38,393 bases of DNA from contig JANXPS010000018.1 of NCBI GenBank assembly GCA_025357175.1, forward strand, positions 1-38,393, in the 5' to 3' direction. The translations under genes and the position numbers were made by a program. This document shows, one piece after another, positions 6,001-32,422 of this stretch (within the stretch, counting starts at the first letter, position 1; every line of letters starts with the position of its first letter). The stretch is from Deltaproteobacteria bacterium (GTDB lineage Bacteria; Desulfobacterota; Deferrimicrobia; Deferrimicrobiales; Deferrimicrobiaceae). A model generated the notes under the pieces. That model ran no database searches. It saw only the letters and a program-made list of their open reading frames with translations, and had not been told where the DNA came from.

Positions 6001-9000
6001 AGAGCGCCGATCTCGTCTTCCGCGGTGCCGGATCCGTCGGCGACGTGTGGACGCTGACGCTCGACGGCAAGGACTACAGCTACACCGCGACGACCGCCAG
6101 CCTGTCCGAGGTCGTCATCGGACTCGAGGCGACATTGCCGACCGGCACGGCCGGATACGGGCTCTCGACCGGGACGACCGGCGAGACCGGCGACACGCTG
6201 TCCATCAGCCTTGCGAACGGCTTCCGGATCGACGGCCTCAAGCGCGTCGCGGCCGACGCCGGCACCACCTCCCGCCTCGAGACGACCGGGGGCACCGCGT
6301 TCACGCACGCCGATATCGCCCTGGGCGGTACCGTCTCGCCCGGCGGCCGCTGGACGCTCACCGTGGGCGGCAACGTCTACTTCCGCGATATCGGGGCGAC
6401 TGCGGTCGGGCAGGACGTCATCGCTGCGGACATCGTCTCGCAGATCACGGGCGACAGCGGCGCGACCTTCACGGCCTCCGTCGATTCCGTCGACGACCGG
6501 CTGATCCACATCGACGCCAAGGCCGGCAACACGGCCGGCTTCACCGTCGCCTTCATGCAGTCCGGCAGCAGCGCGCAGCTGCTGTCCGGAACCGCGGATA
6601 TCTCCGGCACGCCGGTGCAGTCCACCGCCTCGACGGTCCGCTGGTCGACCGCCGATCTTGTCCTCCAGGGAAGCGCGGTCCAGAACGAGACGTGGCGGGT
6701 GACGCTCGGCCTCATCCAGATCAATTCGGCCATGGTTTCCTCGACGGACACGCTGGACGACGTCGGCGCCGACCTGATGGGAAAGATCAACAGCGACAGC
6801 CGGACGAAGGACGACTACGTCGCGGCGTACTCCGCGGACAGCAAGACGCTGGAAATCAAGCTGAAGGCAGGCGGGTCCGTCAAGAGCTTCACCGCCGCGA
6901 TCGACATCCTGCCCGGCTCCAGGGGCACCATCACCGCAGGCAGCGGCGTCGTGACGCACGGCATCACGCTCACAGGCACGCCGGCGGCGGGGCAGATCTG
7001 GTCGCTGGTGGCCGATGCGGGATCCGCGGGCAAGACGACCGTCACCCAGGTCGTCGACGCGACGCACGATACATTGGGCAAGATCGCGGAGTCGCTGGCC
7101 GGCAAGCTGGTTGCCGCCAACTCCGACTACCGCGCCGTGGACGACAACGGAACCGTCGTGGCCAGCAACGTCAACAACGACGCCTTCACGGTCACCTCCA
7201 CCGTCAACCCGCTCCTCTCCTCCGCCGACGTCTCGACGTCTGTCCGCACGGTTTCATTGACCGGAACGGTCGTCACGGGCGAGAAGTGGACGGTCTCGTT
7301 CGACATCAACGGGACCGCCGATTCGGTCGAGCACCTCGTCGCCGATTCCGCAACCGAAATGCTGGCCGACATCGCCAAGGACCTTTCCGACAAGCTCGTG
7401 GCGAAGGGCTGCACGTCGGTCTCCGTCGGCGGGACGGTTATCGTCGAAGGACTCGCCTCCGGCGACACGGTCACCGCATCCACCACATCGGCGGGCACGG
7501 TGACGGCCGACGATTCCAACGCGAGCGCGCGCACCCTCGATCTGGCCGGTACCCGCACCAAGGACGAAGTCTGGACGATGTCGATCATGTCCGGCGCCAC
7601 CGTCCTCGGGACCGCATCGCATACCGTTGGGGCCAATGGCGAGAGCCTCACGACCATCGCCCTGGATTTGGCGACCCAGCTTTCGGCGGGCGATTACGGG
7701 GCGGTCAGCGACAGCGGTCGCGTCACCGTTGCGGGGCTCGCTTCGGGGAGCGCATTCACCCTGACCTATACGGTAGATGGCGTTGCAGGTTCCGCGACGG
7801 ATTCCGCGGCGACCGTTCACCGCTTCAACATCGGCGGAACGGCGGGGACCGGAGAGACCTTCAGCATCACGGAAGGAACGACGACCAGGACCCACGTTGC
7901 CGCGGACGGCCAGCTGCCGGGCGCCATCGCAACCGACTTTGCCACCAAGCTTACGACCGGCAACTACAAGGCATTCGCGAGCGGCGGTTCGGTCGTCATC
8001 GTCCGGATCGACAGCGGCACATACGGCGCCTCCACGAGCTCGGTGTCGAAGGGCGGGGTCGATACGGTCTCGACGCCCAAGGCGACGGCCTTCACGCTCG
8101 AAGGCACGCCTGCATCCGGGCAGATCTGGTCGGCTTCGATTTCCGGCGGCGGCCCGTCCACGTCGCATCCGTTCGCCACAGGCGATACCGTTCCGAAGAT
8201 CGCCACCGCCCTTGCATCCGGTCTTGTCGGTTCGGGCTACGTCGCCTACGCGACCGGAGACACCGTCACGGTCTGCAAGATCGACGGGAGCTCCTTCACC
8301 GCAACCTTCACGCTTTCCCCCGGCGGATCCGCGGCGACGGTCGCGACGTCGATCATCGCGCTGGGCGGAACGGCCTCGATCGGCGAGACATGGTCCGTGT
8401 CCGTCGATGGCGGCGGGCCGGTCGCTTCCCACATCGTCGCCGCGAACGGAGAGGCGATGTCCGTCATCGCCGCCGATCTCGTCGGCCAGCTGAACGGAAC
8501 CGAAACGGACGGCTACACCGCCGTGTACAAGAACGGGAAGATCGTCGTCTCGAAGGTCGGGGCGGCCTCCCTGACGATTACCAAGCCCCCGGTCCAGTCG
8601 CCTCCCTCCGCCGGCAGCGTGCTCTTCAAGGGCACGCCGAAAACGACCTTCTCCCAGTCCGCGTCGCTGCTCGACGTCGACGGCGTCGCCGACGGAAAGT
8701 GCGCAAGCGACGACCAGTGGACGATCACCGTCGGGGGGCACACGTTCACCTGGCCGGCGACCGTCTCCGGCACCCCGACCGACGCATCGGTCGACCTCGA
8801 CACCGTGGCCGCCGGGCTTGCCGGGCTGCTGAACGGTTCCGCGTACGGCTACACGGCGACCGCGACCAACCACTCCGTCAGCGTTTCGAAGGCCGACGGA
8901 TCCTCCCTGTCGGTCGGCGACGTATCGGTCTCCATCAAGCGCGCAGGGACGACGCCCGTCACCGAATCCGACACGCGCACGCACTACAGCACGGCGCACG

Positions 9001-12000
9001 TGTTCCTCTCCAGCGCAGCCGACGTCGTGCACTCGGGCGACGTCTGGTCGATCGCGGTCAACGGGCGGACGTTCCGTTACACGGTGCCCAACGTCGATCC
9101 GGACCACTACGTCTACAGTTCCGACCTGAACATCAACCTGGTCGCGCAAGGGTTGGCCGACGCGATCAACGCGGCGAACCTCTCCTTCTCCGCGTCGAAC
9201 TCGAGCAACGAGGTCACCATCAACGACCGGGACGGCGTGCTCACCGGGCCTTCCCAGACGATCACGGTCGATACGCGCCGGGGCGACGGCACGGTCCGCA
9301 GCATCTTCGACATCGATTCGGTCACCGAGAACGTCGGGTTCATCGTCGCCGACGGCGGCGTCCACTATTACATCGACCGCCCGACGCTTACGCTGCTCAA
9401 GGACGGCAACCCGACCCCGCTCGCCTACAGCAACGGCTCGACGCTCGTCGACAAGGGGAGCCAGTCGACCGACGACCCGTTCCTCGACTACAAGATCGCC
9501 AGCGCAGGCAGCTACAGCGTCCAGGTCGGCACCGTTCGCCACTATACCGACGGCTTCCGGCCCGATGCCGAACTCGGAGTGGTCGCCCCCGGCATCTCCT
9601 ATCAGCTCGATGTCTCCGTTCCCGAACATGCGTACAACCACGACATCCTGGGCCTCGTGGGCAAGCAGGTGCGCATCACCGGCGGCACGGGCATGGGCGA
9701 GTCGGCCACCATCACGAAGTACGACGCCGAGCGGAAGCAGTTCACGATCGACTCGACCTGGGCCACGCTGCCCGACGACACCAGCATCATCGAGATCGGG
9801 ACGGCCTCCGCGATCCCGCCCGCGGTCGACACCTACAGCGTCGTACTCTCGAGCGCCCCGCAGGGCGACGTCGTCGTCGACGTCGTGCCGCAGGCGACAC
9901 GCACCTACAATTCGGCAAAGGCGTTCGACCCGGCATCCAACTTCGGACAGAGCAACATCGTCCAGGTAAAAGCCGCGACGACGCAGGCGATGTTCCACCT
10001 TTCCGGCACGGCTACGGACGGGCTCGACTGGACGGTGACGCTCAACAGCGGCAGCTACACCGCCACCGGTGCCGACCTCGCGACGGTCGCGGCGAACCTG
10101 GCCGACGAAATCAACAAGGACATCCGCTTCACGGCGACGGTCGGAGAGGACGGCGTCACGCTGTTCGTCACCTCGGACGACCGCTTCTACGCCGGCGCAT
10201 CGCTCGAGGCAGGCCTCCAGGGCAGCGTGACGGTCACGCCGCAGCTGCGCTTCACCGCCGGCAACTGGGGCACCCCCCAGTCCGTCGAGGTGCAGGGCCT
10301 CGCCGACCACCTCGTCGACGGCAGCGACGCCCTGGTCTTCCCCGCGTTCGCAGACCGCGTCAACGCGATCCGGGGGCCGGTCACCATCGACGGCGGCATC
10401 AAGATCAACGCCGAGCGTTCGCTCAACGATCCGTTCCTGCTGCCGGGCGAGACCAACTATCCGAAGGCCGACGGAAGCCTGTCCGGCTTCGGCTTCATCG
10501 ACATCGACGGTGTCCGCTACGCGACGCTCACCGACGCCTCGGCCACGCACGTCGATCCGGGCGTCGGCATCAAGGACGGCTTCGATCCGCGCATGAACGG
10601 CTACCCGTACGCCTTCACGATCCTCTCCGGCCCCGACAAGGGCGCCGTCTACGACGTCAAGCAAGTGCTTCTCGACGGCGACGGCAACCCGACGGGCACG
10701 ATCGTCCTCGACATTGCCTACGACAGCGTCGCGGCCGGTTCGAGGCCGGGTTCCGGCGACAGCTACTTCTACGCGCCGGTCAACCGCAACTTCCTCGTGA
10801 CGGAAACGGACCAGGTCGACACGCTCAACGTCTTCAACGGCAACAGCCCCTCCGACGACACGGGCGTGCTGACCGGCACGCACATCGGCGGACTCGGAAT
10901 GGGTGGCGACACGGTCATCGGCGGAAGCCCCATCCAGGGCGGCATCGATTACCGCAATATCGAGGCGCTGAACATCGACCTCGGCAGCGGAAATGACACG
11001 TTCACGGTCGAGTCCACCCACGCGGGTTCCACCGCCATCAACACCGGCGCAGGAAACGACGTCGTCACCGTCAAGACGATCTCGGGCCACACCACGATCT
11101 CGACCGGCGCCGGAGCCGACGTCGTGAACGTCGGCAGCGACAACGGCATCGTCGACCAGATCGCCGGTCTCCTTGCGGTGAACATGGGCGGCAATTCAGG
11201 CGACAAGCTCGCCGCCGTCAACACGGGCGACAGCGGCGACAACGTCGCGACGGTGACCGGCACCACCATCACCGGCCTCGACATGCCGACGGTCGGCAGC
11301 GTGCAGAGCGTCTACGTCCAGGCTCGCACCGGTTCTTTCGCGTTGTCCGCGGCCGGATACGGGCAGATCATGGTCGAGTACGGCACCTCAGCCTCCGACG
11401 TCCAGGCTGCGCTCAACGACCTGTTCGGAACGGCCGACGACGTCAAGGTCGCCGAGTCGCGGGACGTCCGCTACGGGGAGCTGTGGTCGGTCTCCTACAA
11501 CGTCACCTTCGTCGACTCCCTCGCCGGAACCGCGATTCCGCAACTTGCGTGGGTCGAGGGGCAGGGCGGCCTCACGGGCTATCCCGACTCCTCCGCCTAT
11601 GTACGCGTTTCCACGGCGGTCGATCCGCAGGCGCCGCCGCAGCTGCCGTCGGTCCAGACCGTGACCGTCCATGCGACGGAAGGGACCTTCCGGATCGGCT
11701 TTGCGCTTGATCCCACCGATCCGTCCGCGATCACTTATACCGGCGACATCAAGGCCGGCGCCTCCGGCGACGACGTGCTCAAGGCGCTCTCGGCCGTCCT
11801 CGACCCGAACAACGTCCACCCGGACCGGCCGTACACCAAGAACGTGGCCGTGAGGCAGTTCGGGGACGACTACGTGATCACCTTCCAGGGCGCGCAGCGC
11901 ACCCTGACGATCTCCGGAATCGTAAACGACACGGACGGCTCCGTCACCTGCGCGACGCGGATGAACGGCATCAACTACTACGGCGTGGATACGCTCGACC

Positions 12001-14589: not shown

Positions 14590-14892
14590 ATGGTGCAGGA
14601 CAAGAAGAACGTTCAGGAAACCAAGGCGCCGGCCGGCGGTACGCAGATCCGCTGGGACCACTCCAAGATGGAGACGACCTACGCCAACGTCTGCAACGTG
14701 ACGAGCACGCGTGAGGAGGTTTCGGTCCTCTTCGGAACCAACAAGACGCTCAACGTGGGCCAGCCTGGCGAGATCATCGTCGAACTGACCGACCGGATCG
14801 TCATGAACCCGTTCACCGCCAAGCGCTTCTCCGCGGTCATCAACAAGGTGGTCGCCGATTACGAAGCCGCCCACGGCCCGCTGCCGCTCTAA
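14590..14892 (+). CDS. DUF3467-like small protein (100 aa), paralog 1
   Basis: ATG at 14590, 9 nt after AGGAG (14576-14580). The upstream part of the listed ORF (from 14446) overlaps the giant gene. Core is YANVCNVTSTREEVSVLFG...VELTDRIVMNPFTAKRFSAVINKVVADYEAAHGPL. The DUF3467 assignment is from memory of that family's pattern. Confidence 0.8.
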   Translation: MVQDKKNVQETKAPAGGTQIRWDHSKMETTYANVCNVTSTREEVSVLFGTNKTLNVGQPGEIIVELTDRIVMNPFTAKRFSAVINKVVADYEAAHGPLPL

Positions 14893-14945: not shown

Positions 14946-15281
14946 ATGAGCAATCGTCCGAAGACCGAAGAGAACCAGACCGCCGAAACCCGTCCGAATC
15001 CCGCCGACGGCCCCCGGATCCAGTGGGACCAGTCGAAGATGAAGACCACCTACGCGAACGTGTGCAACGTCTCCAGCACGCGCGAGGAAGTCTCGATCAT
15101 GTTCGGAACCAACCAGTCGATCAACCTCGGGCAGGGAGAGATCACGATCGAACTGACCGACCGGATCATCCTCAACCCGTACGCCGCCAAGCGCCTCGCC
15201 CAGATCCTGGCGGGCATCGTCAAGCAGTACGAGGCCGCGTTCGGTCCCCTCCCGATCGAGGGCGAAGGTAAATCCCACTGA
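14946..15281 (+). CDS. DUF3467-like small protein (111 aa), paralog 2
   Basis: ATG at 14946 preceded by GAGGAG (~14931-14936). About 60% identical to the preceding gene over an ~83-aa core by my hand alignment (YANVCNVSSTREEVSIMFG...IELTDRIILNPYAAKRLAQILAGIVKQYEAAFGPL). Confidence 0.8.
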   Translation: MSNRPKTEENQTAETRPNPADGPRIQWDQSKMKTTYANVCNVSSTREEVSIMFGTNQSINLGQGEITIELTDRIILNPYAAKRLAQILAGIVKQYEAAFGPLPIEGEGKSH

Positions 15282-15319: not shown

Positions 15320-17140
15320 TTGTGGGAGCGATTCCGTGACGCGCAAGGCGACGATTATCTCCATTACTGGCTGGCGCTGCAGTCCGGCCTGATCGAAGGG
15401 GCGGTCCAGGGCCTTCTCGTGATGGGAACGCCCGGGGCCGGTCCCCCGGTCCCGGTCGCCCGCTGGCCGGAGAGCGGGGCCGATCCAGTCCGGCTGGCCG
15501 AGATCTGCGAGCGCGTCCTCGAAGAGCCCGGCGGTCTCCTCTGCACCTTGCCTGCGCGACCCTCCGAACCGTCGTCCGGAGGGTCGCAGCCGTTTGCGAT
15601 CGCCTATCCCGTCCTGGTGGGCGGCGAGTCGCACGGCGTCGTCGCGTTCGAGGTCGCCGCGATTTCCGAAGAGAATCTGGCTCCGGCCATGAACCAGCTC
15701 CAGTGGGGCGTCTCCTGGCTCGAGCTTTTCGTCCGCCGGCGCAATGCGCAGGACAACGATTCCGTACTCTCCGAAATGAGATCCTCCTTCGACCTTTTGG
15801 CGGCGGTCGTCGACGAGGAGCCCTCCAGCGCGTGGATGCGCTTCGTCACCGAGCTGGCCACGCGGATGCAGTGCGACCGTGCCAGCCTGGGGACTCTGAA
15901 AGGGCACCAGGTCACCGTCCGGGCGATTTCCCACAGCGCCCAGTTCGACCGGAACACGAACCTGGTCCGGCTGATCGGGCGTGCGATGGAAGAGTCGGTG
16001 CTGCAGCGGGACGAGGTGATCTTCCCCCCCCCCGAAGGCGGAAAGATTCTCGTAACCAAGGATCACGACGAGCTGTCCCGCGAACAGGGGGGCGAGGCGA
16101 TCCTGACGATCCCCGTCTACTCGGGCGGGCGGTATACGGGTGCATTGACGCTCGAGCGTCCCGCCTCAGTCCCGTTCGGGGAAACCGAGGTCGGCATCTG
16201 CCGCGGAATCGTCGCGCTGGTCTCCCCCATCCTCGAGCTCAAGCGGCAAAACGACCGCCCCCTGGCGTTCAAGGCCGCGGAATCTCTCCGGGAACAGGCG
16301 GTCCGCCTCTTCGGGCCCCGTTACCCAGGCCGCAAACTGGCGATCCTCCTCGCCTTCGGCGTCGCGTATTTCCTCGCCACGGCCACCGCCGATTACCGGA
16401 TCACCGCTACGGCGGTCCTCGAACCGCTGATCCGCCGCTCGGTCGTCTCCCCCTTCAACGGCTACGTCAAGGAGGCGTTCGTCCGGCCCGGAGACATCGT
16501 CCGGAAGGCGGCGCCGCTCTGCACGCTCGACGACCGCGATCTCCATCTCGAGCGCGCCAAGTGGCAAAACCAGAAGACCCAGTACGAGCGCCAGCAGCAG
16601 GAGGCGGCGGCCACGAACGACCGCGCGAAGGCCAAGATCATCGCCTCCCAGTTCGAACAGGCGGTCGCCCAGCTCGACATGGTCGACCGTCAGCTCAAGC
16701 GGACCAGCCTGGTGGCCCCCTTCGACGGAATCGTGGTCAGCGGCGACCTGAGCCAGCGGATCGACGGCGCCGTCGAGCAGGGCGAGGTGCTGTTCGAGGT
16801 CGCCCCCTTGAACGCCTACCGGGTCATCCTCCAGGTCGTCGAGTACAAGATCGGCGACGTGCATCCGGGCCAGACGGGGGAACTCGTCCTTCCGGCGCGC
16901 ACCGACCTCAAGTACCGCTTCACGGTCGAGAAGATCACCCCGATCGCCTCGCAGAAGGACGGCCAGAACTATTTCCGGGTCGAGGCCAAGCTCGAAGGTT
17001 CGGGCGTGGCCGACCAGACGCTGCGGCCGGGCATGGAAGGGGCCGGAAAGATCCAGGTCGGCCGCGGGAAGCTGCTGGCAATCCGCACGCGCGAACTGGT
17101 CGACTGGGTACGCCTCAAGGTCTGGGCCTGGCTGCCTTGA
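15320..17140 (+). CDS. HlyD-family periplasmic adaptor with a ~330-aa cytoplasmic tandem GAF-like N-terminal region and one TM segment
   Basis: First start after the in-frame TAA at 15269 is TTG at 15320; ATG at 15422 is an alternative. GAF-like segment: FVTELATRMQCDRASLGTLKGHQVTVRAISHSAQFD...LTIPVYSGGRYTGALTLER. TM: LAILLAFGVAYFLATATA. HlyD lipoyl/coiled-coil/barrel: GYVKEAFVRPGDIVRKAAPLCTLDDRDL...LVAPFDGIVVSGD. Confidence 0.8.
   Translation: MWERFRDAQGDDYLHYWLALQSGLIEGAVQGLLVMGTPGAGPPVPVARWPESGADPVRLAEICERVLEEPGGLLCTLPARPSEPSSGGSQPFAIAYPVLVGGESHGVVAFEVAAISEENLAPAMNQLQWGVSWLELFVRRRNAQDNDSVLSEMRSSFDLLAAVVDEEPSSAWMRFVTELATRMQCDRASLGTLKGHQVTVRAISHSAQFDRNTNLVRLIGRAMEESVLQRDEVIFPPPEGGKILVTKDHDELSREQGGEAILTIPVYSGGRYTGALTLERPASVPFGETEVGICRGIVALVSPILELKRQNDRPLAFKAAESLREQAVRLFGPRYPGRKLAILLAFGVAYFLATATADYRITATAVLEPLIRRSVVSPFNGYVKEAFVRPGDIVRKAAPLCTLDDRDLHLERAKWQNQKTQYERQQQEAAATNDRAKAKIIASQFEQAVAQLDMVDRQLKRTSLVAPFDGIVVSGDLSQRIDGAVEQGEVLFEVAPLNAYRVILQVVEYKIGDVHPGQTGELVLPARTDLKYRFTVEKITPIASQKDGQNYFRVEAKLEGSGVADQTLRPGMEGAGKIQVGRGKLLAIRTRELVDWVRLKVWAWLP
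16024..16033 (+). repeat. Poly-C tract of 10 nt inside the GAF-HlyD CDS
   Basis: Sequence reads ...gatcttCCCCCCCCCCgaagg... and encodes F-P-P-P-E. It is the longest homopolymer I found in the window. Confidence 0.95.
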
Positions 17141-19296
17141 GCGGCACGCGCGAACAATCCCTTTACAGCCCATCGTGGTACCGGATCGCCGGCCTGAAAC
17201 CGCGGCTGCGGGGGCACGTCCGGATCCACCGCCAGTACTTCCGCGAGCGGGAATGGTTCGTCCTGCAGGACCGTTCCACCGGCCGCTTCCACCGGATCTC
17301 CCCCGAGGCGTACTACCTCGTCGGCCTGATGGACGGCAACCGGACGATGACCGAGATCTGGGACGCCGCCTGCCTCCGGCTGGGCGACGCCGTGCCCACG
17401 CAGGACGAGGTGATTTCCCTGCTGTCGCAGATCCATCGCTTCGACGGCCTTCAATCCGACCTGCCGCCCGATATCGACGACCTGTCCGACCGTTCCGCGA
17501 AAGAGAAACGGTCGAAGCTCTTCGGCTACATCGCCTCCCCGACCTCCTTCAAGATTCCGCTGCTCGACCCCGACCGCTTTCTCGACCGCACCATCGGCCT
17601 GGTGCGCCCCTTCCTCGGTTGGGGCGGTTTCCTCGCCTGGCTCGCGGTGGTCGGGTACGGCCTCCTGCTCGCCGGCATCCACTGGCGCGAACTCACCTCG
17701 AACGTCACCGACCGGATGCTCAGCGTCGAAAACCTCGTCGTCCTGTCGCTCGTCTTCCCGATCGTGAAGACGCTCCACGAACTCGGCCACGCCTATGCCG
17801 TCAAGCGCGGCGGGGGCGAGGTGCACGAGATGGGGATCATGCTCCTGGTGTTCGTCCCCAACCCCTATGTCGACGCGACCGCCTCATACGCCTTCCGGAC
17901 CAAGTATCCGCGCATGTTCGTCGGCGCCGCCGGGATCATGGTCGAGCTGTTTCTCGCGGGCCTCGGCGCGATCGTGTGGACCAGCGTCGAGCCTGGCGCG
18001 CTGCGGGCGGTCGCCTTCAACACGATGGTGCTGTGCGGCGTATCGACGCTCGTGATGAACGGCAATCCGTTGATCCGCTACGACGCCTACTACATCCTTT
18101 CCGATTACCTCGAGATCCCGAACCTGGGGGCGCGCTCCACGGAATATCTCGGCTATTTCCTCCGCCGCCGGATTCTCGGGATCAAGGAGGCGACACCCAC
18201 GGCGAACGGCGCAAGAGAAGCGTTCATCCTCGCGTCCTACGGCGTCGCCTCGTTCATCTACCGGATCTTCGTCATGTCGGCGATCGCGATGGCGATCGCG
18301 GGCCGCTTCTTCGTGGTCGGGACGATCCTCGCGATCTGGGTGGTCGGCGGATTCGTCGCGATCCCCGCCTGGCGGGCGATCCGCACGATGGGCTCCGATT
18401 CCCTCATGCGCCGCTACCGCGTGCGGGTGGTCCTGGCGGCGACCGTTCTTGCGGGAGTCGTCCTGTTCGCCACCTTCGGTGTCCCCGTCCCCTCGTTCAC
18501 CGTGGTCGAGGGGGTGACCTGGGTCCCCGCGGAATCGCAGATCAACGCGACGGCGGACGGCATCGTCAACGCGCTCCTGGCCGCTCCGGAATCGGTCGTC
18601 CACCGGGGCGACCCGCTGATCCGGATCGAGGCGCTGAAGCTGGAAAAGGACGTCCGCGTCCTCGAGGGCTCGCTGCGCGAGGCCGAATCGCGCTACCAGG
18701 CCAGCCTCGTCTCCGACCGCACGGCGATGGGAATCTACCGGGACGACATGGAAAAGGCACGCCTTGAGCTGACGCGCTCCCGGGAAAAGCTCGGAGGGCT
18801 TCTCGTGCGCAGTCCGGCCGACGGGCTGCTGCTCATCCCGTCCGCGGCCGACCTCCCCGGCCGATACGTCAAGAAGGGCGAGGGGCTGGGCTACGTGGTC
18901 GACTTCCCGAGGGCGGTCGTCCGGATCGCCGTCGACCAGGACGACGTCGAGCGGATCCGCCGGAGGGTCACGAAAGTCGAGGGCCGGCTCGCCGGGGCGA
19001 TCGGAACCGTCATTCCCGCCACCGTCGTCCGCGAGGTGCCCACCGCATCCAACGATTTGCCGAGCCAGGCGCTCTCCGTCGCCGGCGGCGGTCTGATTGC
19101 CGTTTCTCCGGAGGGGGGCGGGCGGAAGCCGAAGTCGATCCGGCGATTCTTTACTTTCGACATCGCCCTGAAGGACGCCCCGATCCGGCGTGTGGGCGAA
19201 CGCGCGTTCATCCGCTTCACCCATCAACCCGAGACGCTGGGAGACCGCTGGATCCGGTCGCTCCGCCGGCTCCTGCTCAGCAAGTTCGACCTGTAG
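17137..19296 (+). CDS. Three-part fusion: PqqD/RRE-like N-domain, polytopic peptidase M50 (site-2-protease-type, HELGH) domain, C-terminal HlyD-type adaptor domain
   Basis: TTG at 17137 overlaps the upstream TGA (TTGA, 17137-17140). The upstream part of the listed 1197-aa ORF overlaps the previous gene. PqqD-like: FHRISPEAYYLVGLMDGNRTMTEIWDAACLRLGDAVPTQDEVISLLSQIHRFDGL. HELGH at 17776-17790, followed by VFVPNPYVDAT. Multiple TM helices. HlyD-like C-terminal part: RGDPLIRIEALKLEKDVRVLEGSLREAESRY...LLVRSPADGLLL. Confidence 0.8.
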   Translation: MSGTREQSLYSPSWYRIAGLKPRLRGHVRIHRQYFREREWFVLQDRSTGRFHRISPEAYYLVGLMDGNRTMTEIWDAACLRLGDAVPTQDEVISLLSQIHRFDGLQSDLPPDIDDLSDRSAKEKRSKLFGYIASPTSFKIPLLDPDRFLDRTIGLVRPFLGWGGFLAWLAVVGYGLLLAGIHWRELTSNVTDRMLSVENLVVLSLVFPIVKTLHELGHAYAVKRGGGEVHEMGIMLLVFVPNPYVDATASYAFRTKYPRMFVGAAGIMVELFLAGLGAIVWTSVEPGALRAVAFNTMVLCGVSTLVMNGNPLIRYDAYYILSDYLEIPNLGARSTEYLGYFLRRRILGIKEATPTANGAREAFILASYGVASFIYRIFVMSAIAMAIAGRFFVVGTILAIWVVGGFVAIPAWRAIRTMGSDSLMRRYRVRVVLAATVLAGVVLFATFGVPVPSFTVVEGVTWVPAESQINATADGIVNALLAAPESVVHRGDPLIRIEALKLEKDVRVLEGSLREAESRYQASLVSDRTAMGIYRDDMEKARLELTRSREKLGGLLVRSPADGLLLIPSAADLPGRYVKKGEGLGYVVDFPRAVVRIAVDQDDVERIRRRVTKVEGRLAGAIGTVIPATVVREVPTASNDLPSQALSVAGGGLIAVSPEGGGRKPKSIRRFFTFDIALKDAPIRRVGERAFIRFTHQPETLGDRWIRSLRRLLLSKFDL

Positions 19297-19309: not shown

Positions 19310-21301
19310 ATGCTGCGCGACCTCCTCGACCATCCGCCGGCCACGCACGAGAATCGCTCCGAGCGTCCGGATCCGACGCCGGGCGCCCTCGAGTCGGCTT
19401 TCGACGCCGTCGGCGGGTTTGTCGGGCGGCTGATCCGCTCCCGCCTCCGCAGTCCGGATCGAATCATTTCCCTCGTGGCGTCGCACGCCGGTGAAATGAC
19501 CCGGATGAGCGACGATGGATTGCGCGCCGAGGCGGGCCGGCTCGGCGCCGAAATGCGGCGAAACGGCTTCCGCGACGACCTGGTCGGCCGCACGTTCGCG
19601 CTGATCCGCGAGACGGCGACGCGGACGGTCGGCAAGCGCCACTACGACGTCCAGCTCATGGGCGGGTGGGTGCTGCTTTCGGGTTCGGTCGCCGAGATGG
19701 AAACGGGCGAGGGGAAGACGCTGACGGCGACGCTGGCCGCCGGGACGGTCGCGCTCGCCGGCGTACCGGTCCACGTCCTCTCGGTCAACGACTACCTCAC
19801 CGCGCGCGACGCCGAGGAAATGGGGCCGGTCTACCGGGCGCTGGGTCTCCGCGTCGGATGCGTCGTCCACGACGTGGCGCTCGACAGGCGGCGCGAGCAA
19901 TACCTGTGCGACATCGTCTACTGCACGAACAAGGACGTGGTGTTCGACTACCTGCGCGACCGTCTGGTGCTCAAGGAGTTCGGCGGGATGCCGCTGCGCC
20001 TGCAGGCCGAGGCGCTCTACGAACAGGGGGCGCGGAGCCGTCGCCTCATGCTGCGCGGCCTGCATTACGCGATCACGGACGAGGCCGACTCCCTCCTGAT
20101 CGACGAGTCGCGAACGCCGCTGATCATCTCGGGCGCGGTGGTCGGCCGCGACGAGATCCGTTTCCTAGAGGATGTCCTCGACTTCGCCAGGGCGCTCGAA
20201 AACGGCACCGACTTCAAGCTCGACCTGAACAAGCGCATCGTCGTCGTGACCGCGGAGGGCGACCGCAAGATCGACGACTTTCCCCTGCCGACCGGGTCGC
20301 CCTGGATCAACAGCATCCGCAAGAACGAAATGGTCCGGCGCGCGGTCTCGGCGCTCTACCTGTTCGACCGCGACAAGGAATACCTGGTCCGCGACGGCAA
20401 GGTGCAGATCATCGACGTGTTCACCGGCCGCGTGATGCCAGACCGTTCGTGGGAGCAGGGGCTGCAGCAGCTCATCGAGATCAAGGAAGGGTGCGAGCCG
20501 AGCACCCAGCAGGATACCGTCGCCAAGATCAGCTACCAGACCTTCTTCCGGAAGTACCGCCACCTCTCGGGGATGACGGGCACCGCGAAGGAGGTCCGGG
20601 GAGAGCTGGGGACGGTCTACGGCCTGCCGGTGATCCGGATCCGGACCCACCGGGCGCTGCGGCGGCAGAAGCTTCCCACGCGCATCGTGGCGACGATCGC
20701 CGGGAAGGAGCAGTTGCTGCTTCAGCGGATCGGCGAGATCCACGCGACGGGGCGTCCCGTCCTCGTCGGCACCGGCTCGGTCGCCGCCTCCGAGCGGCTG
20801 AGCGCGTTTCTTGCCGGGGTGGGATTGCCGCACCGGGTCCTCAATGCGAAGAACGACCGGGAGGAGGCGGCCATCGTCGCCCGCGCGGGGGAAATGGGCT
20901 CGGTCACCATCGCCACCAGCATGGCCGGCCGCGGCACCGACATCAAGCTCGGCCCCGGCGTCGAGGCGCTCGGCGGCCTCCACGTCATCCTGACCGAACG
21001 CAACGAGGCCGCGCGGATCGACCGACAGCTGGCCGGCCGTTGCGCGCGCCAGGGAGACCCCGGCATCTACGAGGAGATCCTGTCGCTCGAGGATCCGCTG
21101 CTCGAAGGCGGAGCGGGGGCCGCGGCGTGGATCCTCCGGCGGATTCCCTCGGGGTCGCCCCTGTGGTCGTTCGTGGCCGGGTCGGCGATCGACCGGGCCC
21201 AGAAAAGGACGGAAAGCCACTACCGGCGGATGCGGCGCGACCTCTTCCGGCAGGATTCCCAGTCGAAAAACCGGATGTCATTTTCCGGCCGCGAGGAGTA
21301 A
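19310..21301 (+). CDS. SecA-like DEAD-motor ATPase, C-terminally truncated relative to canonical SecA (663 aa)
   Basis: ATG at 19310; the listed ORF start at 19190 overlaps the previous gene. SecA signatures: EMETGEGKTLTATL (GEGKT at 19706-19720), VHVLSVNDYLTARDAEEMG, IVYCTNKDVVFDYLRD, LHYAITDEADSLLIDESRTPLIISG (DEAD at 20078-20089), SGMTGTA, VLVGTGSVAASERLS, LNAKNDREEAAIVARAG, TIATSMAGRGTDIKLG, GGLHVILTERNEAARIDRQLAGRCARQGDPG. Confidence 0.9.
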   Translation: MLRDLLDHPPATHENRSERPDPTPGALESAFDAVGGFVGRLIRSRLRSPDRIISLVASHAGEMTRMSDDGLRAEAGRLGAEMRRNGFRDDLVGRTFALIRETATRTVGKRHYDVQLMGGWVLLSGSVAEMETGEGKTLTATLAAGTVALAGVPVHVLSVNDYLTARDAEEMGPVYRALGLRVGCVVHDVALDRRREQYLCDIVYCTNKDVVFDYLRDRLVLKEFGGMPLRLQAEALYEQGARSRRLMLRGLHYAITDEADSLLIDESRTPLIISGAVVGRDEIRFLEDVLDFARALENGTDFKLDLNKRIVVVTAEGDRKIDDFPLPTGSPWINSIRKNEMVRRAVSALYLFDRDKEYLVRDGKVQIIDVFTGRVMPDRSWEQGLQQLIEIKEGCEPSTQQDTVAKISYQTFFRKYRHLSGMTGTAKEVRGELGTVYGLPVIRIRTHRALRRQKLPTRIVATIAGKEQLLLQRIGEIHATGRPVLVGTGSVAASERLSAFLAGVGLPHRVLNAKNDREEAAIVARAGEMGSVTIATSMAGRGTDIKLGPGVEALGGLHVILTERNEAARIDRQLAGRCARQGDPGIYEEILSLEDPLLEGGAGAAAWILRRIPSGSPLWSFVAGSAIDRAQKRTESHYRRMRRDLFRQDSQSKNRMSFSGREE

Positions 21302-21311
21302 CCTCCTGAAT

Positions 21312-22064
21312 ATGATGAGAATGAAGCGCTTTCTAGCAGTCGTTTGCCTAGCCGGAATCCTGTCGCCCGTCCGGCCCATGGCCGCTCCGCGCGCGATTCC
21401 CGCCGAGGAATTCGACGCGATGATCTACCCCAACGAGACCGTCAAGCTGAGCAGCCAGATCGCCGGAATCCTCGAGGAGGTCTCCGTCGAAAGAGGGGAC
21501 GTCGTCAAGGCGGGACAGGTCGTGGCGCGTCTCAAGGCCGGCGTCGAAAAGGTCGAGGTCGCCCTCGCCGGCGCCAATGTCGACTACCAGAGGCGCAAGA
21601 TCGAACGGAACGCCGAGCTGGCCCGGAAGAAGCTGATTTCCGCGCAGGAGAACGACGACCTCGAGGGCGATCTCAAGAAGGGCGAGCTGATCCTCCAGGA
21701 GGCCGGGGAAAAGCTCAAGATGCGGACCATCCTCTCGACCGTCGACGGCGTCGTGACCGAACGGTTGCTGTCGCCCGGCGATTACGTGGGCGAGGCACCC
21801 ATCCTCAAGATCGCCAGCATCGATCCGCTCAAGGTCGAGGTCATCGTCTCGGCCCGCAAGTACGGATCGATCCGCAAGGGAATGCGCGCCGAGATCCGTC
21901 CCGAGGCGCCGGTCGGCGGCCTCTATTACGGGAAGGTCACGATCGTCGACAAGGTCATCGATCCGGCGAGCAGCACATTCGGCGTCCGGATCGAGTTGGC
22001 CAACCCCGGCTTCCGGCTGCCTTCGGGGCTGAAATGCCGCGTCCGGTTCCTCAAAGAGCCTTGA
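21312..22064 (+). CDS. Small periplasmic membrane-fusion (HlyD/RND-adaptor type) protein with signal peptide (250 aa)
   Basis: ATG at 21312 (ATGs at 21315 and 21321 are alternatives), with GAGGAG at 21293-21298. Signal peptide MMRMKRFLAVVCLAGILSPVRPMAA. Lipoyl-like GILEEVSVERGDVVKAGQVVARL, a short coiled coil, TILSTVDGVVTERLLSPGDYV and a beta-barrel segment. Confidence 0.8.
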   Translation: MMRMKRFLAVVCLAGILSPVRPMAAPRAIPAEEFDAMIYPNETVKLSSQIAGILEEVSVERGDVVKAGQVVARLKAGVEKVEVALAGANVDYQRRKIERNAELARKKLISAQENDDLEGDLKKGELILQEAGEKLKMRTILSTVDGVVTERLLSPGDYVGEAPILKIASIDPLKVEVIVSARKYGSIRKGMRAEIRPEAPVGGLYYGKVTIVDKVIDPASSTFGVRIELANPGFRLPSGLKCRVRFLKEP

Positions 22065-23170
22065 TCCCCGTCCGCCCCGACATATTCGACGTGACCGGCT
22101 CCCGCGAGGCGATCTCGATCGATTTCGGGACGGTTTCCGGCCTTGGTCCCGATCGGAACGGCGTGGCCGCCACGCTCGAGACGCGCGTCATCATGTCGCC
22201 GCTGATCGCCGCCCGCGTCGCCACGCTTCTCGAAAACAACATCCGCAAATACGAGGCCGCCTTCGGCGAACTGACGCAGGAAGTGCCGCCCCGGCCCGTG
22301 GGCCGGACCGAGTCCGACCTGCTGTTCGACCCGGTGCCCGGCCTGAGCATCGACGGAAGCGCCGACCGGGCCGCCTTCCTGTTCGAGTCGGTCGAGCGTC
22401 TCGGCATCCCCTACGCCTACGAACGGTCGTTCAAGCTGATGGCCGGCACGATCCTCCCGAACCGCTTCCTGTGCGGGGTCAAGAAGGGTTTCCTCGGGGA
22501 CGGATCCGACGGGATCCTGATCGAACTCTGCCGCAAGATCGGGATGCCGCCGCAGTTCCTCGAAACGTTCGCAAGCCGTGTCCAACACGCCGACTACGTC
22601 CATTTCGGCTTCGAAGAGGGCGTTTCCGGCTGCATCTACAAGGTCTACATCGAATTCGACGTCGGCCTGAAGCGGGAGCATGTCGACCTCCGCCACATGC
22701 CGGCGGAACCGTTCGAACTCCACATCGCGTTCAAGTGGTCTCCCGCGGACGAGTCGGTCCGCGCCGTTTCCCGGTACACCGGTTTTCCATTCATGACGAA
22801 GGAAACGATCGAAGGGCGGATCGCCGACATCTGCCGCGACGCGCCGGACGGCGAGTGCCTCGGACTGACGGGCCGCCTCCTCGACCGGGTTTACGGAAAG
22901 CTGCCGCTTCACGGTTTCTTCTACGTCGAGGTCCGGGAGGAGGGCAACCCGAGGGTTTCCTTCGACGTGAAGGTCTACGAGGCGGGAATCCCGATGCGGG
23001 AGATCTTCCCGATCGCCGACGGCTACCGCAGGCACTTCGCCATTCCCGACGACCGCTTCCTCCCGCTGTACGAGCGGATCGGCGATTCGACGTTCGGGCA
23101 CGTCACGGGGGGGATCGACCGGAGCGGGAACGAGTTCCTGACGCTCTATTTCGGAGTCGAGTGGCGCTGA
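22061..23170 (+). CDS. DUF3467-like N-terminal module (~75 aa) fused to an unrecognised ~290-aa domain
   Basis: TTG at 22061 overlaps the upstream TGA (TTGA, 22061-22064); GTG at 22091 is an alternative. N-terminal IFDVTGSREAISIDFGT...LETRVIMSPLIAARVATLLENNIRKYEAAFGEL aligns with the two small paralogs. The listed ORF start at 21344 overlaps the previous gene in another frame. Confidence 0.75.
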   Translation: MIPVRPDIFDVTGSREAISIDFGTVSGLGPDRNGVAATLETRVIMSPLIAARVATLLENNIRKYEAAFGELTQEVPPRPVGRTESDLLFDPVPGLSIDGSADRAAFLFESVERLGIPYAYERSFKLMAGTILPNRFLCGVKKGFLGDGSDGILIELCRKIGMPPQFLETFASRVQHADYVHFGFEEGVSGCIYKVYIEFDVGLKREHVDLRHMPAEPFELHIAFKWSPADESVRAVSRYTGFPFMTKETIEGRIADICRDAPDGECLGLTGRLLDRVYGKLPLHGFFYVEVREEGNPRVSFDVKVYEAGIPMREIFPIADGYRRHFAIPDDRFLPLYERIGDSTFGHVTGGIDRSGNEFLTLYFGVEWR

Positions 23171-28207: not shown

Positions 28208-28225
28208 GGACCGGTGCCCGATCCG

Positions 28226-29512: not shown

Positions 29513-29636
29513 CGAGCGATTCCTCCGATATGACTTCCCGCTTGAAACCCGCGGGGGAAAGGTTCGTAATGTTAATCAGGGTATCAATCGGGACGGCAAC
29601 CTCCAGACCAACGTTAACAACCGGAGGTACGAAGCG

Positions 29637-29939
29637 ATGTTCTCTCCCACCGGTCTCTACGCATGCGCCGCCTTGTTCATCTCGATCATGTTCGCATCCA
29701 GGTTCCTCTCAAGGAAAAAGACGGCGGGGCTGGTCCTGGCCGCGGCCGCTTTCACGGCGGTCGAGTCGGGGCTCCTGACCGATTTCGGGCTGCCGCTGCC
29801 CGCAGGCCTGCTGCTGGTCCTTGCCGGGATCCGGGTGCAGCTTTTCGCCTCGGCCGCAATCCTGGCGATCAACCTGCTGCTGGGATGGCTCCTCTTTCGG
29901 CTGATCCCGGGGCACGGGGCGCACCCGCACCACGCCTGA
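29637..29939 (+). CDS. Small hydrophobic membrane protein (100 aa), unknown function
   Basis: GGAGG at 29623-29627, 9 nt before ATG 29637. G/C-rich third positions. Three predicted hydrophobic helices and a His-rich tail (GHGAHPHHA). Confidence 0.55.
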   Translation: MFSPTGLYACAALFISIMFASRFLSRKKTAGLVLAAAAFTAVESGLLTDFGLPLPAGLLLVLAGIRVQLFASAAILAINLLLGWLLFRLIPGHGAHPHHA

Positions 29940-29948
29940 CGGGCCGGG

Positions 29949-32366
<2,418 letters not shown>

Positions 32367-32422
32367 ACCTGTACTGTCGACCCTGTCCGTCTGTTATCTA
32401 TCGGCAAAACGCGCGCGGATGT

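What the first reader, a model, noticed from the sequence alone, without database searches (positions are those of the whole stretch)
19310..21301. SecA paralog that keeps the motor but lacks the SecY-engaging C-terminal third
The 663-aa product has all the SecA NBD1/NBD2 signatures I can recognise: GEGKT Walker A, the DEAD-type TDEADSLLIDESRTPLIISG, TIATSMAGRGTDIKLG and RIDRQLAGRCARQGDPG. It also has a visibly shortened preprotein-crosslinking insert.

The sequence ends about 60 aa after the start of the scaffold helix (IDRAQKRTESHYRRMRRDLFRQ...). Canonical SecA (about 840-900+ aa) continues from there with the helical wing, the two-helix finger (IRA1) that inserts into SecY, and the C-terminal tail. 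Without these, canonical SecYEG coupling seems unlikely, so the motor probably works with other partners, such as the neighbouring M50-HlyD and GAF-HlyD proteins.
Basis: partly seen in the sequence, partly recalled or inferred. Interest (0 to 1): 0.7.

Follow-up and report, generated by a model that had tools for sequence, protein, structure and literature searches.

The report
Wingless SecA motor beside giant protein
This gene encodes a naturally shortened copy of the protein-export motor SecA, from a family first noted in 2015, and it sits in a conserved operon that looks like a dedicated export machine for the giant calcium-binding protein encoded just upstream.

Summary
ORF 19310..21301 (663 aa) is a SecA paralog with intact ATPase motifs and a preprotein cross-linking domain. 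It ends at E. coli SecA residue ~665, near the end of the long scaffold helix. The helical wing, two-helix finger and C-terminal tail are absent. This is not an artefact: 80 of 81 related loci stop at the same aligned position.

The family is already described. Kamneva et al. [quoted passage not shown] I found no experiments on it.

What I add:
- The module lies directly downstream of a giant RTX-repeat gene. This one is over 4853 aa; relatives reach 5340-17800 aa.
- It is usually accompanied by small DUF3467 proteins.
- The giants share a C-terminal motif.
- The M50-HlyD protein has a conserved HExxH site and an N-terminal PqqD-like peptide-recognition domain.
- No ABC transporter is present.

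Best reading: the SecA-derived ATPase takes the place of the ABC transporter in a type-I-like exporter for the giant protein. Whether a housekeeping secA exists in this genome could not be tested.

The parts
3..14564 (+). 3' part of a giant gene, cut by the contig end (over 4853 aa). The product is Gly/Thr/Ala/Asp-rich with 7 Cys. It carries an FlgD Ig-like domain, RTX calcium-binding repeats near aa 4288-4600, and a C-terminal GWN...LDREAFENL...RKFRKW motif. Proposed cargo.
   Evidence: The frame is open from base 3. Pfam FlgD_ig 1.1e-16 and HemolysinCabind 4.4e-10. The C-terminal motif is shared with giants in other loci: 23 of 43 tails versus 0 of 447 internal windows. Upstream giants on long contigs are 5340-17800 aa.
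14590..14892 (+). DUF3467 protein, copy 1 (100 aa). Candidate cargo chaperone or adaptor.
   Evidence: Pfam DUF3467 1.1e-19; ORF.
14946..15281 (+). DUF3467 protein, copy 2 (111 aa).
   Evidence: Pfam DUF3467 2.8e-22. A DUF3467 gene lies upstream of the module in 41 of 52 loci. The model shows four strands plus a long helix at pLDDT 64.
15320..17140 (+). GAF-HlyD protein (606 aa): cytoplasmic GAF domain, one transmembrane helix (340-358), periplasmic membrane-fusion domain.
   Evidence: Pfam GAF 4.9e-07, HlyD_3 8.3e-17, HlyD_D23 8.6e-15. Hydropathy. Present upstream in 57 of 58 loci.
17137..19296 (+). PqqD-like domain + M50-type intramembrane metalloprotease + HlyD fusion (719 aa). The TTG start overlaps the GAF-HlyD stop. 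About 160 aa are cytoplasmic, followed by about 7 predicted transmembrane helices that include HELGH and NPLxxxD, then a periplasmic HlyD domain.
   Evidence: NCBIfam daptide_HExxH 2.1e-44, below its cutoff. Pfam HlyD_3 and Peptidase_M50, the latter weak. HExxH and NxxPxxxxD are at least 97% conserved in 66 sequences. The N-terminal domain matches PqqD in 22 of 23 members (best 3.3e-06), and the profile's top PDB hit is PqqD 3G2B at 0.0031. Adjacent upstream in 65 of 67 loci.
19310..21301 (+). The finding: a truncated SecA paralog (663 aa) with NBD1, cross-linking domain, NBD2 and the long scaffold helix only.
21312..22064 (+). Small periplasmic adaptor (membrane-fusion protein, 250 aa) with an N-terminal signal or lipoprotein-like sequence.
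   Evidence: Pfam HlyD_D23 1.5e-19; NCBIfam RND_mfp 1.2e-34, above its cutoff. Hydropathy. Within 1 kb downstream in 66 of 75 loci.
22061..23170 (+). Fusion protein (369 aa): N-terminal DUF3467 domain plus about 290 aa of unknown fold. The TTG start overlaps the adaptor's stop. Last gene of the operon.
   Evidence: Pfam DUF3467 2.8e-09. No PDB or Pfam match for the C-terminal part. Homologs occur in about a dozen loci. Start context.

Best explanation
[quoted passage not shown] It is a SecA paralog that stops at the end of the long scaffold helix.

**Proposed role.** It is the cytoplasmic ATPase of an envelope-spanning exporter that resembles a type I secretion system. The usual ABC transporter is replaced by two parts:
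- this SecA-derived motor;
- a membrane protein that fuses a PqqD-like peptide-recognition domain, an M50-type intramembrane metalloprotease and a HlyD periplasmic domain.

A GAF-HlyD protein and a small periplasmic adaptor complete the periplasmic conduit. A TolC-like outer-membrane channel would be encoded elsewhere.

**Proposed cargo.** The giant RTX-repeat protein encoded immediately upstream, probably held unfolded or delivered by the small DUF3467 proteins. It would be recognised through its conserved C-terminal motif and possibly clipped by the M50 site.

**Shown here:** domain content, conserved catalytic motifs, the conserved truncation point, conserved gene order, RTX repeats and the C-terminal motif of the giants, and the absence of an ABC transporter.

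**Inferred:** ATPase activity, physical contacts, which protein is the cargo, the direction of threading, and proteolysis.
For: **Motor**
- ATPase motifs are intact and invariant.
- The fold matches SecA: Foldseek top hit 1tf5 at 1e-41, and phmmer to 3jv2 at 4e-134.
- The protein ends at E. coli residue 665.

**Truncation is the native state**
- The stop is at the same position in 80 of 81 loci.
- 139 of the 150 nearest cluster representatives are 640-700 aa.

**Conserved module**
- M50-HlyD adjacent in 65 of 67 loci.
- GAF-HlyD in 57 of 58.
- Small adaptor in 66 of 75.
- DUF3467 in 41 of 52.
- Gene starts overlap the preceding stops, and no promoter- or terminator-like site lies on the + strand inside the operon.

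**Giant neighbour**
- 33 of 42 loci with at least 9 kb of upstream sequence carry a giant ORF or a homolog of this one.
- Gene calls on 8 of 8 long contigs give 5340, 15071, 17800, 9463, 8436, 7310, 10998 and a fragmented 2463+418 aa.
- RTX repeats occur in this giant and in 5 of 5 giants sampled from other phyla.
- The C-terminal RRFxxW / RSWxW motif is in 23 of 43 tails and 0 of 447 internal windows.

**No ABC transporter**
- An ABC-ATPase-like ORF occurs within 10 kb in only 4 of 82 loci, never adjacent.

**M50-HlyD protein**
- Active-site residues are at least 97% conserved.
- The N-terminal domain is PqqD-like.

**Literature**
- The type-I-like hypothesis for the four-gene module is in PMC4452313.
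- SecA-like domains lacking scaffold and wing, fused to giant proteins, are reported in 10.1101/2023.11.21.568195.
Against: - There is no experimental evidence for any step. In Methylobacterium extorquens the module was barely expressed in exponential phase (PMC4452313).
- No TolC-like gene is in this window.
- About a fifth of loci with enough upstream sequence show no giant gene.
- Only about half of the giant tails carry the motif as I wrote it; others have a second type of tail.
- The DUF3467 fold model has low confidence and matches nothing, so its chaperone role is a guess.
- The M50 part scores below the curated cutoffs of both Pfam and NCBIfam.
- How a soluble SecA fragment without a two-helix finger would push a chain through an M50-type membrane domain has no precedent.
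Confidence: 0.6

Rival explanations
1. It is an accessory SecA (SecA2-like) that still delivers a special set of substrates to the ordinary SecYEG channel, alone or together with the housekeeping SecA. The HlyD and M50 proteins would act only after the substrate has crossed the inner membrane.
For: It matches SecA2 models and structures strongly (TIGR04221 5.7e-126; 4uaq 3.8e-92; 6sxh 2.3e-124). From my own knowledge, mycobacterial SecA2 lacks the helical wing yet works with SecYEG. Kamneva's tree places the family next to actinobacterial SecA2.
Against: All SecA2 models score far below their cutoffs. The two-helix finger, and not only the wing, is missing, and the N-terminal helix is interrupted by an insertion. 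The tight, translationally coupled synteny is with membrane proteins that have cytoplasmic domains (PqqD-like, GAF) able to dock a cytoplasmic motor. The giant's visible portion carries RTX repeats and a conserved C-terminal motif, typical of Sec-independent type I substrates. Its N-terminus is not in the window, so a signal peptide cannot be excluded.
Confidence: 0.12
2. The module is a peptide (RiPP-like) maturation and export machine. The PqqD-like domain and M50 protease would process a small precursor peptide, the HlyD proteins would export it, and the SecA-like protein would act as an unfoldase or leader-binding ATPase. The giant gene would be a neighbour, not the cargo.
For: The best named match of the M50 protein is the daptide biosynthesis intramembrane metalloprotease (2.1e-44), then the YydH/LiaK epipeptide protease. 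The N-terminal domain is PqqD-like in 22 of 23 members. Two relatives carry radical SAM and methyltransferase genes plus DUF3467 fusions next to the module. About a fifth of loci lack a visible giant.
Against: The daptide model scores 152 against a cutoff of 300. This window has no radical SAM or other modification enzymes in the operon. The giant gene is the most consistent neighbour after the core genes and has its own family-specific C-terminal motif. DUF3467 is too conserved and folded-looking to be a typical precursor, with 25 invariant columns in 37 sequences.
Confidence: 0.15
3. The gene is a decaying or mis-assembled secA, truncated by a frameshift, a sequencing error or a contig artefact, and has no function of its own.
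For: None beyond the short length. NCBI names some members 'prepilin peptidase', which shows that annotation pipelines handle the family poorly.
Against: The same stop position occurs in 80 of 81 loci from many phyla. 139 of 150 cluster representatives are 640-700 aa. Catalytic residues are invariant. GC3 is 0.90. The next gene starts 10 nt downstream. There are no C-terminal SecA remnants in any frame.
Confidence: 0.01

Closest known systems
[quoted passage not shown] M. extorquens META1p2402-2399)
   Same: Same domain content, with the SecA scaffold-wing domain lost or reduced to a fragment. Same four genes in the same order. Same proposed type-I-like role, with the SecA_DEAD protein as ATPase and the M50 protein as membrane component.
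   Different: That paper does not mention Geobacter-type hosts, DUF3467, a cargo or a giant neighbour.
SecA-like domains fused inside giant proteins of Omnitrophota and Actinobacteria (West-Roberts et al. 2023, bioRxiv 10.1101/2023.11.21.568195)
   Same: SecA DEAD and preprotein-binding domains without scaffold and wing, associated with giant proteins, and proposed to export the giant itself. A normal SecA is present elsewhere in those genomes.
   Different: There the domain is part of the giant polypeptide, next to transmembrane regions. Here it is a separate 663-aa protein in an operon with HlyD and M50 proteins, which that paper does not mention. Whether the two groups are one clade was not tested.
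E. coli SecA-N68, the engineered C-terminal truncation (PDB 5K9T)
   Same: Nearly the same parts: NBD1, cross-linking domain and NBD2. It is a strong structural and sequence match.
   Different: N68 is a laboratory fragment. From my own knowledge it has deregulated, elevated ATPase activity because IRA1 is missing. The natural protein also keeps the long scaffold helix and has family-specific insertions.
Classical type I secretion of giant RTX adhesins (ABC transporter + HlyD-type adaptor + TolC, e.g. SiiE or LapA systems; review PMC8277102)
   Same: Giant, acidic, Cys-poor cargo with RTX repeats near the C-terminus and a conserved C-terminal region. HlyD-type adaptors are encoded next to the cargo.
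   Different: There is no ABC transporter. There are three HlyD-domain proteins instead of one. The ATPase comes from the SecA family, and the membrane component is an M50-type protease with a PqqD-like domain.
Accessory SecA2 of mycobacteria and Gram-positive bacteria (TIGR04221, TIGR03714; PDB 4UAQ, 6SXH)
   Same: A second SecA-family ATPase for special substrates, with high sequence similarity in the motor.
   Different: All SecA2 models score below their cutoffs. From my own knowledge, SecA2 proteins are about 760-800 aa and keep the two-helix finger. There is no SecY2 or Asp context here.

Membership tests
Secondary SecA_DEAD domain proteins (Kamneva et al. 2015) | SecA_DEAD motor with cross-linking domain and NBD2 present | tested here: met
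   Pfam SecA_DEAD 2.8e-97, SecA_PP_bind 4.2e-23, P-loop_SecA 1.1e-46.
Secondary SecA_DEAD domain proteins (Kamneva et al. 2015) | Scaffold-wing domain (SecA_SW) absent or reduced to a small fragment | tested here: met
   No SecA_SW hit. The alignment ends at E. coli residue 665 and only the long helix is kept. No remnants elsewhere.
Secondary SecA_DEAD domain proteins (Kamneva et al. 2015) | Encoded in a module with GAF, Peptidase_M50 and HlyD/biotin-lipoyl proteins | tested here: met
   The window order is GAF-HlyD, M50-HlyD, SecA-like, HlyD adaptor, the same order as META1p2402-2399. It is conserved in the 80 loci surveyed.
Secondary SecA_DEAD domain proteins (Kamneva et al. 2015) | Present in addition to a canonical full-length SecA in the same genome | not testable with these tools
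   Only one 38-kb contig of this genome is available, and the look-up of the protein's source record failed. For the family, the paper reports them as second copies.
Secondary SecA_DEAD domain proteins (Kamneva et al. 2015) | Forms a group separate from canonical SecA | tested here: met
   Tested by similarity ranking only; no tree was built. The 150 best cluster representatives (40-53% identity) are almost all about 663 aa and end where this protein ends. Identity to E. coli SecA is 38%.
Housekeeping SecA (NCBIfam NF009538 / TIGR00963) | Score at or above the curated equivalog cutoff | tested here: not met
   567.6 bits against a cutoff of 814, and 557.1 against 800. The matches cover only model positions up to about 494 of 814.
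Housekeeping SecA (NCBIfam NF009538 / TIGR00963) | Helical wing domain, two-helix finger (IRA1) and C-terminal tail | tested here: not met
   The protein ends at E. coli residue 665 of 901. No match to E. coli 640-901 occurs anywhere in the window.
Accessory SecA2 (TIGR03714, TIGR04221, TIGR04397, NF012136) | Score at or above the curated cutoff of a SecA2 model | tested here: not met
   480 against 930; 422 against 725; 503 against 1085; 380 against 1100.
Type I secretion system (ABC transporter, membrane-fusion protein, TolC-like channel) | ABC transporter with ATPase as inner-membrane component | tested here: not met
   None in the operon. A motif scan finds an ABC-ATPase-like ORF in only 4 of 82 loci, never adjacent.
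Type I secretion system (ABC transporter, membrane-fusion protein, TolC-like channel) | HlyD-type membrane-fusion protein | tested here: met
   Three proteins carry HlyD domains.
Type I secretion system (ABC transporter, membrane-fusion protein, TolC-like channel) | TolC-like outer-membrane factor | tested here: inconclusive
   None among the window's ORFs scanned. It is often unlinked in classical systems. One relative (L073) has an ORF with a TolC-like C-terminal sequence, judged by eye, between the giant and an adaptor gene. Kamneva et al. saw OEP-domain genes in some loci.
Type I secretion system (ABC transporter, membrane-fusion protein, TolC-like channel) | Cargo with RTX repeats and an uncleaved C-terminal signal | tested here: met
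   RTX repeats are in this giant and in 5 of 5 others. A conserved C-terminal motif is present. That it acts as a secretion signal is inferred.
Site-2-protease / M50 intramembrane metalloproteases (partner protein 17137..19296) | HExxH and NxxPxxxxD(G) motifs within transmembrane segments | tested here: met
   Both motifs are at least 97% conserved in 66 sequences and lie among the hydrophobic segments. The Pfam score itself is below cutoff, 17.2 against 27.2.

The most novel reading that the evidence does not exclude
A widespread, still unnamed secretion system, found in at least 546 species representatives. In it a SecA-derived motor without wing or finger, docked on a membrane protein that combines a PqqD-like domain, an M50 protease and a HlyD domain, takes the place of the ABC transporter of type I secretion. 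Its job would be to export proteins of 5,000-18,000 residues. DUF3467 proteins would be the dedicated chaperones, and the C-terminal RRFxxW-type motif the export signal. The SecA-like domains fused into the giant proteins of Omnitrophota would be the same solution in cis.
Probability: 0.45. Interest if true: 0.8.

Novelty: new member of a known kind. Interest (0 to 1): 0.58.

Why it matters
How bacteria move proteins of 10,000 or more residues across two membranes is unresolved. The known routes for giant adhesins all use an ABC transporter.

This module has no ABC transporter, but it has a complete SecA motor stripped of the parts that engage SecY. If the proposed mechanism holds, it shows that the SecA ATPase has been reused with a different membrane partner. 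It would also link two separate literature observations: the secondary SecA_DEAD module (2015) and SecA-like domains in giant proteins (2023).

The finding yields a defined, testable set of parts: motor, recognition domain, protease, three adaptors, candidate chaperone, and cargo with a candidate signal. Some carriers are named isolates that may be culturable, such as Geomonas paludis, Desulfoluna limicola and Roseateles albus.

As a single gene call it is not new. Its value lies in the context.

Tried and rejected
- **Hidden C-terminus by frameshift, or a split gene.** tblastn with E. coli SecA 640-901 against the window and all loci found nothing. The apparent long tblastn extensions in six loci run through the stop codon into the next gene.
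- **DUF3467 as a SecB-like chaperone.** The model has a four-strand-plus-helix layout, but confidence is low (pLDDT 64). Foldseek against the PDB gave no hit better than E 0.4 and no SecB among the 50 matches listed. hhalign against E. coli SecB gave probability 0.3%, with only a 13-residue 'ILxPYA' match. A profile search of PDB sequences found nothing. Not supported.
- **Protein search with the last 250 aa of the giant.** No hit at E 0.001, probably swamped by low-complexity candidates. One of the three searches was wasted.
- **Look-up of the window protein's source record.** Not on record. The organism and a second secA therefore could not be checked.
- **Anti-phage defence link.** No PADLOC match for five operon proteins.
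- **C-terminal 290 aa of the DUF3467 fusion protein.** No Pfam or PDB match.
- **First, stricter regular expression for the giant C-terminal motif.** It under-counted and picked wrong ORFs, and was replaced by a simpler one with an internal control.
- **Literature.** No paper links SecA with DUF3467, none follows up the 2015 module experimentally, and none mentions the M. extorquens locus tags.
Full report
**1. The observation**

The ORF runs from ATG 19310 to TAA 21299-21301 and encodes 663 aa. Its third-position GC is 0.90, like every other gene I assign to the operon.

Pfam finds SecA_DEAD (2.8e-97), P-loop_SecA (1.1e-46) and SecA_PP_bind (4.2e-23, model positions 6-110 of 110). The protein aligns end to end with solved SecA structures. 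It covers B. subtilis SecA residues 20-602 at E 4e-134 and E. coli SecA residues 18-665 of 901 at 38% identity.

They are invariant or nearly so in an alignment of 27 relatives: Walker A K136, D257/E258 of the DEAD-type box, R541 in MAGRGTDI, and R569, R577 and R580.

The AlphaFold model is of moderate quality (pLDDT 68). It ends with a helix at 617-652. Its best structural matches are SecA structures, including the engineered E. coli fragment SecA-N68.

By the usual E. coli domain map, which I take from my own knowledge of the SecA literature, the long scaffold helix spans about 621-668. The protein therefore keeps most of that helix. It lacks the helical wing, the second half of the scaffold with the two-helix finger (IRA1), and the C-terminal tail with the zinc finger.

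One detail needs correction. The cross-linking domain is about 18 residues shorter than in E. coli, but it has the same length as in B. subtilis. It is not a distinguishing feature.

The real family-specific differences are two insertions:
- about 20 residues in NBD1 (225-244);
- about 28 residues that interrupt the N-terminal helix.

**2. The truncation is native**

- The next gene starts 10 nt after the stop.
- tblastn with E. coli SecA 640-901 finds nothing in any frame of the window or of the related loci.
- A scan of species-representative genomes found at least 546 relatives, of which I examined 80 loci. In 80 of 81 loci, counting the window, the stop codon falls at the same aligned position.
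- A full HMMER pass over 1.84 billion cluster representatives returns, as its 150 best hits (40-53% identity), proteins with a median length of 663 aa. Of these, 139 lie between 640 and 700 aa.
- Hosts include Geobacteraceae (closest, 64-68% identity), many other Desulfobacterota, Acidobacteriota, Rokubacteria, Methylomirabilia, Nitrospirota, Burkholderiales, Gamma- and Alphaproteobacteria and Planctomycetes.
- NCBI labels some members 'prepilin peptidase', which is an annotation error.

**3. What is already known**

Kamneva, Poudel and Ward (PLoS One 2015, PMC4452313) described 'secondary SecA_DEAD domain proteins'. These lack the SecA scaffold-wing domain entirely or keep only a small fragment.
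- They form a clade apart from the hosts' canonical SecA.
- They lie in a conserved module with a GAF protein, a Peptidase_M50-like protein and HlyD/biotin-lipoyl proteins.
- In M. extorquens AM1 the order is GAF, M50, SecA_DEAD, HlyD.
- The authors proposed a type-I-like secretion role, with the SecA_DEAD protein as ATPase and the M50 protein as membrane component.

The window shows exactly this order. The finding is therefore a new member of a described family.

In the library I could search, there is no experimental follow-up. That paper does not mention a cargo, DUF3467 or Geobacter-type hosts.

**4. The operon**

All genes are on the + strand:

| Coordinates | Product | Size |
|---|---|---|
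| 3..14564 | giant gene, cut by the contig end | over 4853 aa |
| 14590..14892 | DUF3467, copy 1 | 100 aa |
| 14946..15281 | DUF3467, copy 2 | 111 aa |
| 15320..17140 | GAF-HlyD | 606 aa |
| 17137..19296 | M50-HlyD | 719 aa |
| 19310..21301 | SecA-like | 663 aa |
| 21312..22064 | small adaptor | 250 aa |
| 22061..23170 | DUF3467 fusion | 369 aa |

Two junctions are TTGA start/stop overlaps. No promoter-like or terminator-like site lies on the + strand inside the operon. A convergent YhdP-like gene closes it.

Across the surveyed loci:

| Neighbour | Loci with it / loci with enough sequence |
|---|---|
| M50-HlyD directly upstream | 65 / 67 |
| GAF-HlyD upstream | 57 / 58 |
| adaptor within 1 kb downstream | 66 / 75 |
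| DUF3467 upstream | 41 / 52 |

**5. New context: the giant neighbour**

Among 42 loci with at least 9 kb of upstream sequence, 33 carry either an open frame of at least 1000 aa on the same strand or a homolog of this window's giant. In 27 of them the open frame runs off the fetched sequence.

Gene calls on long contigs give the full sizes: 5340, 15071, 17800, 9463, 8436, 7310 and 10998 aa, plus one fragmented case of 2463+418 aa. That is 8 of 8 contigs.

The window's giant is Gly/Thr/Ala/Asp-rich with 7 Cys in 4853 residues. It carries an FlgD Ig-like domain and RTX calcium-binding repeats in its last 600 residues. Five of five giants sampled from other phyla also have RTX repeats.

Their C-termini share a motif. 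In the window it reads GWNVASNGASDRKVRLDREAFENLERKTRERKFRKWH. The core RRFxxW or RSWxW occurs in the last 130 residues of 23 of 43 candidates, and in 0 of 447 internal windows of the same proteins. A second tail type (sWLxxFv...dPNxxIxI) is seen in several others.

An ABC-ATPase-like ORF is within 10 kb in only 4 of 82 loci and is never adjacent.

**6. New context: the partner proteins**

The M50-HlyD protein has about 160 cytoplasmic residues, then about seven hydrophobic segments, then a periplasmic HlyD domain.
- HExxH and the NxxPxxxxD motif are at least 97% conserved in 66 sequences, so the protease site is probably active.
- Its best named relative is the daptide biosynthesis intramembrane metalloprotease, at 2.1e-44 but below the cutoff.
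- Its N-terminal domain matches PqqD in 22 of 23 members (best 3.3e-06). A profile of it finds PqqD (3G2B) as the top PDB sequence at E 0.0031.
- From my own knowledge, PqqD-like domains serve as peptide-recognition elements in RiPP pathways. This is a plausible receptor for the cargo's motif.

GAF-HlyD has a cytoplasmic GAF domain, one transmembrane helix and a periplasmic HlyD domain.

DUF3467 is strongly conserved, with 25 invariant columns in 37 sequences. Its model shows four strands and a long helix, but at low confidence. It has no significant structural or profile match, including to SecB.

**7. Mechanism proposed**

The SecA-derived motor would bind the unfolded giant chain in its clamp. 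It would dock on the cytoplasmic PqqD-like and/or GAF domains and drive the chain through a membrane and periplasmic assembly built from the M50-HlyD, GAF-HlyD and small adaptor proteins. A TolC-like channel encoded elsewhere would complete the route. Calcium-driven folding of the RTX repeats outside the cell would prevent back-sliding, as in classical type I secretion. The M50 site may clip the recognition motif. DUF3467 may keep the cargo export-competent.

From my own knowledge, loss of IRA1 deregulates the ATPase of SecA fragments such as N68. Partner proteins would then have to supply the regulation.

What is shown and what is inferred:
- **Shown here:** sequence features, conservation and gene order.
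- **Inferred:** every physical step.

I put 0.6 on the overall statement. Family membership alone I put at about 0.97.

**8. Rivals**

- **SecA2-like helper of SecYEG.** All SecA2 models score far below their cutoffs, the finger is missing, and the synteny points to other partners.
- **RiPP-type peptide machine with the giant as bystander.** It draws on the daptide-protease and PqqD similarities, and on the radical SAM, methyltransferase and DUF3467-fusion genes next to the module in two relatives. It does not explain the giant's conserved position and tail motif.
- **Pseudogene or assembly artefact.** Excluded.

**9. Relation to giant-gene work**

West-Roberts et al. (bioRxiv 2023) report SecA DEAD and preprotein-binding domains without scaffold and wing, fused inside giant proteins of Omnitrophota and Actinobacteria. 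They suggest that these domains export the giant itself. They do not mention HlyD or M50.

The present family looks like the same association, but with the motor encoded as a separate gene. Whether the two groups share ancestry was not tested.

**10. Limits**

- The genome of this window is not available, so a housekeeping secA could not be sought. For the family, the 2015 paper reports a canonical copy alongside.
- No tree was built.
- Transmembrane segments come from a simple hydropathy scan.
- The giant's N-terminus is outside the window.

**Verdict**

The gene belongs to a known but experimentally untouched family. The link to giant RTX proteins gives it moderate to high interest.

Noticed in passing
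L084:12767-20378 and L085:12767-18772 (relatives; opposite strand, downstream of the module): In two relatives the module is followed by two or three radical SAM genes, an O-methyltransferase-like gene and larger DUF3467 fusion proteins (390 and 688 aa). This hints at post-translational modification linked to DUF3467. The window has only the 369-aa DUF3467 fusion and no radical SAM genes.
   Followed up: no
window 22061-23170: The last operon gene fuses a DUF3467 domain to about 290 residues with no Pfam or PDB match. Homologs occur in about a dozen related loci, on either strand.
   Followed up: partly
tails of upstream giants in L054, L057, L068, L070, L038: A second type of conserved giant C-terminus (sWLxxFv ... 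dPNxxIxIxv) replaces the RRFxxW-type motif. This suggests two classes of recognition signal.
   Followed up: no
P0005, P0048 (relatives of the finding): NCBI names these truncated SecA paralogs 'prepilin peptidase', an evident annotation error that propagates in Geobacter and Geomonas records.
   Followed up: no
window 23146-26772 (- strand): A 1207-aa YhdP/AsmA-like protein is convergent with the operon (Pfam YhdP 9.5e-25, NCBIfam below cutoff). From my own knowledge, such proteins are implicated in lipid transport to the outer membrane. No link to the module was examined.
   Followed up: no
window 26930-38365: The rest of the window holds ordinary signalling and respiration genes: a GGDEF protein with a Tll0287-like sensor, a TolB-like beta-propeller, a hybrid PAS histidine kinase, an MFS transporter, a chemoreceptor and a multihaem MtrC/OmcA-like cytochrome. 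This fits a Geobacter-like host.
   Followed up: no
literature: bioRxiv 10.64898/2026.03.19.712371: Chlorobium chlorochromatii, which has experimentally detected giant proteins, is reported to carry one horizontally acquired secA (Cag_1676). Kamneva et al. list one Chlorobi species with a secondary SecA_DEAD protein. Whether these are the same gene, and whether it serves the giants, was not checked.
   Followed up: no
L073:2256-3650: An ORF whose C-terminal sequence looks TolC-like by eye lies between the giant gene and an adaptor gene in one Burkholderiales relative. This is a possible example of the missing outer-membrane component encoded in cis; it was not scanned against any domain library.
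   Followed up: no
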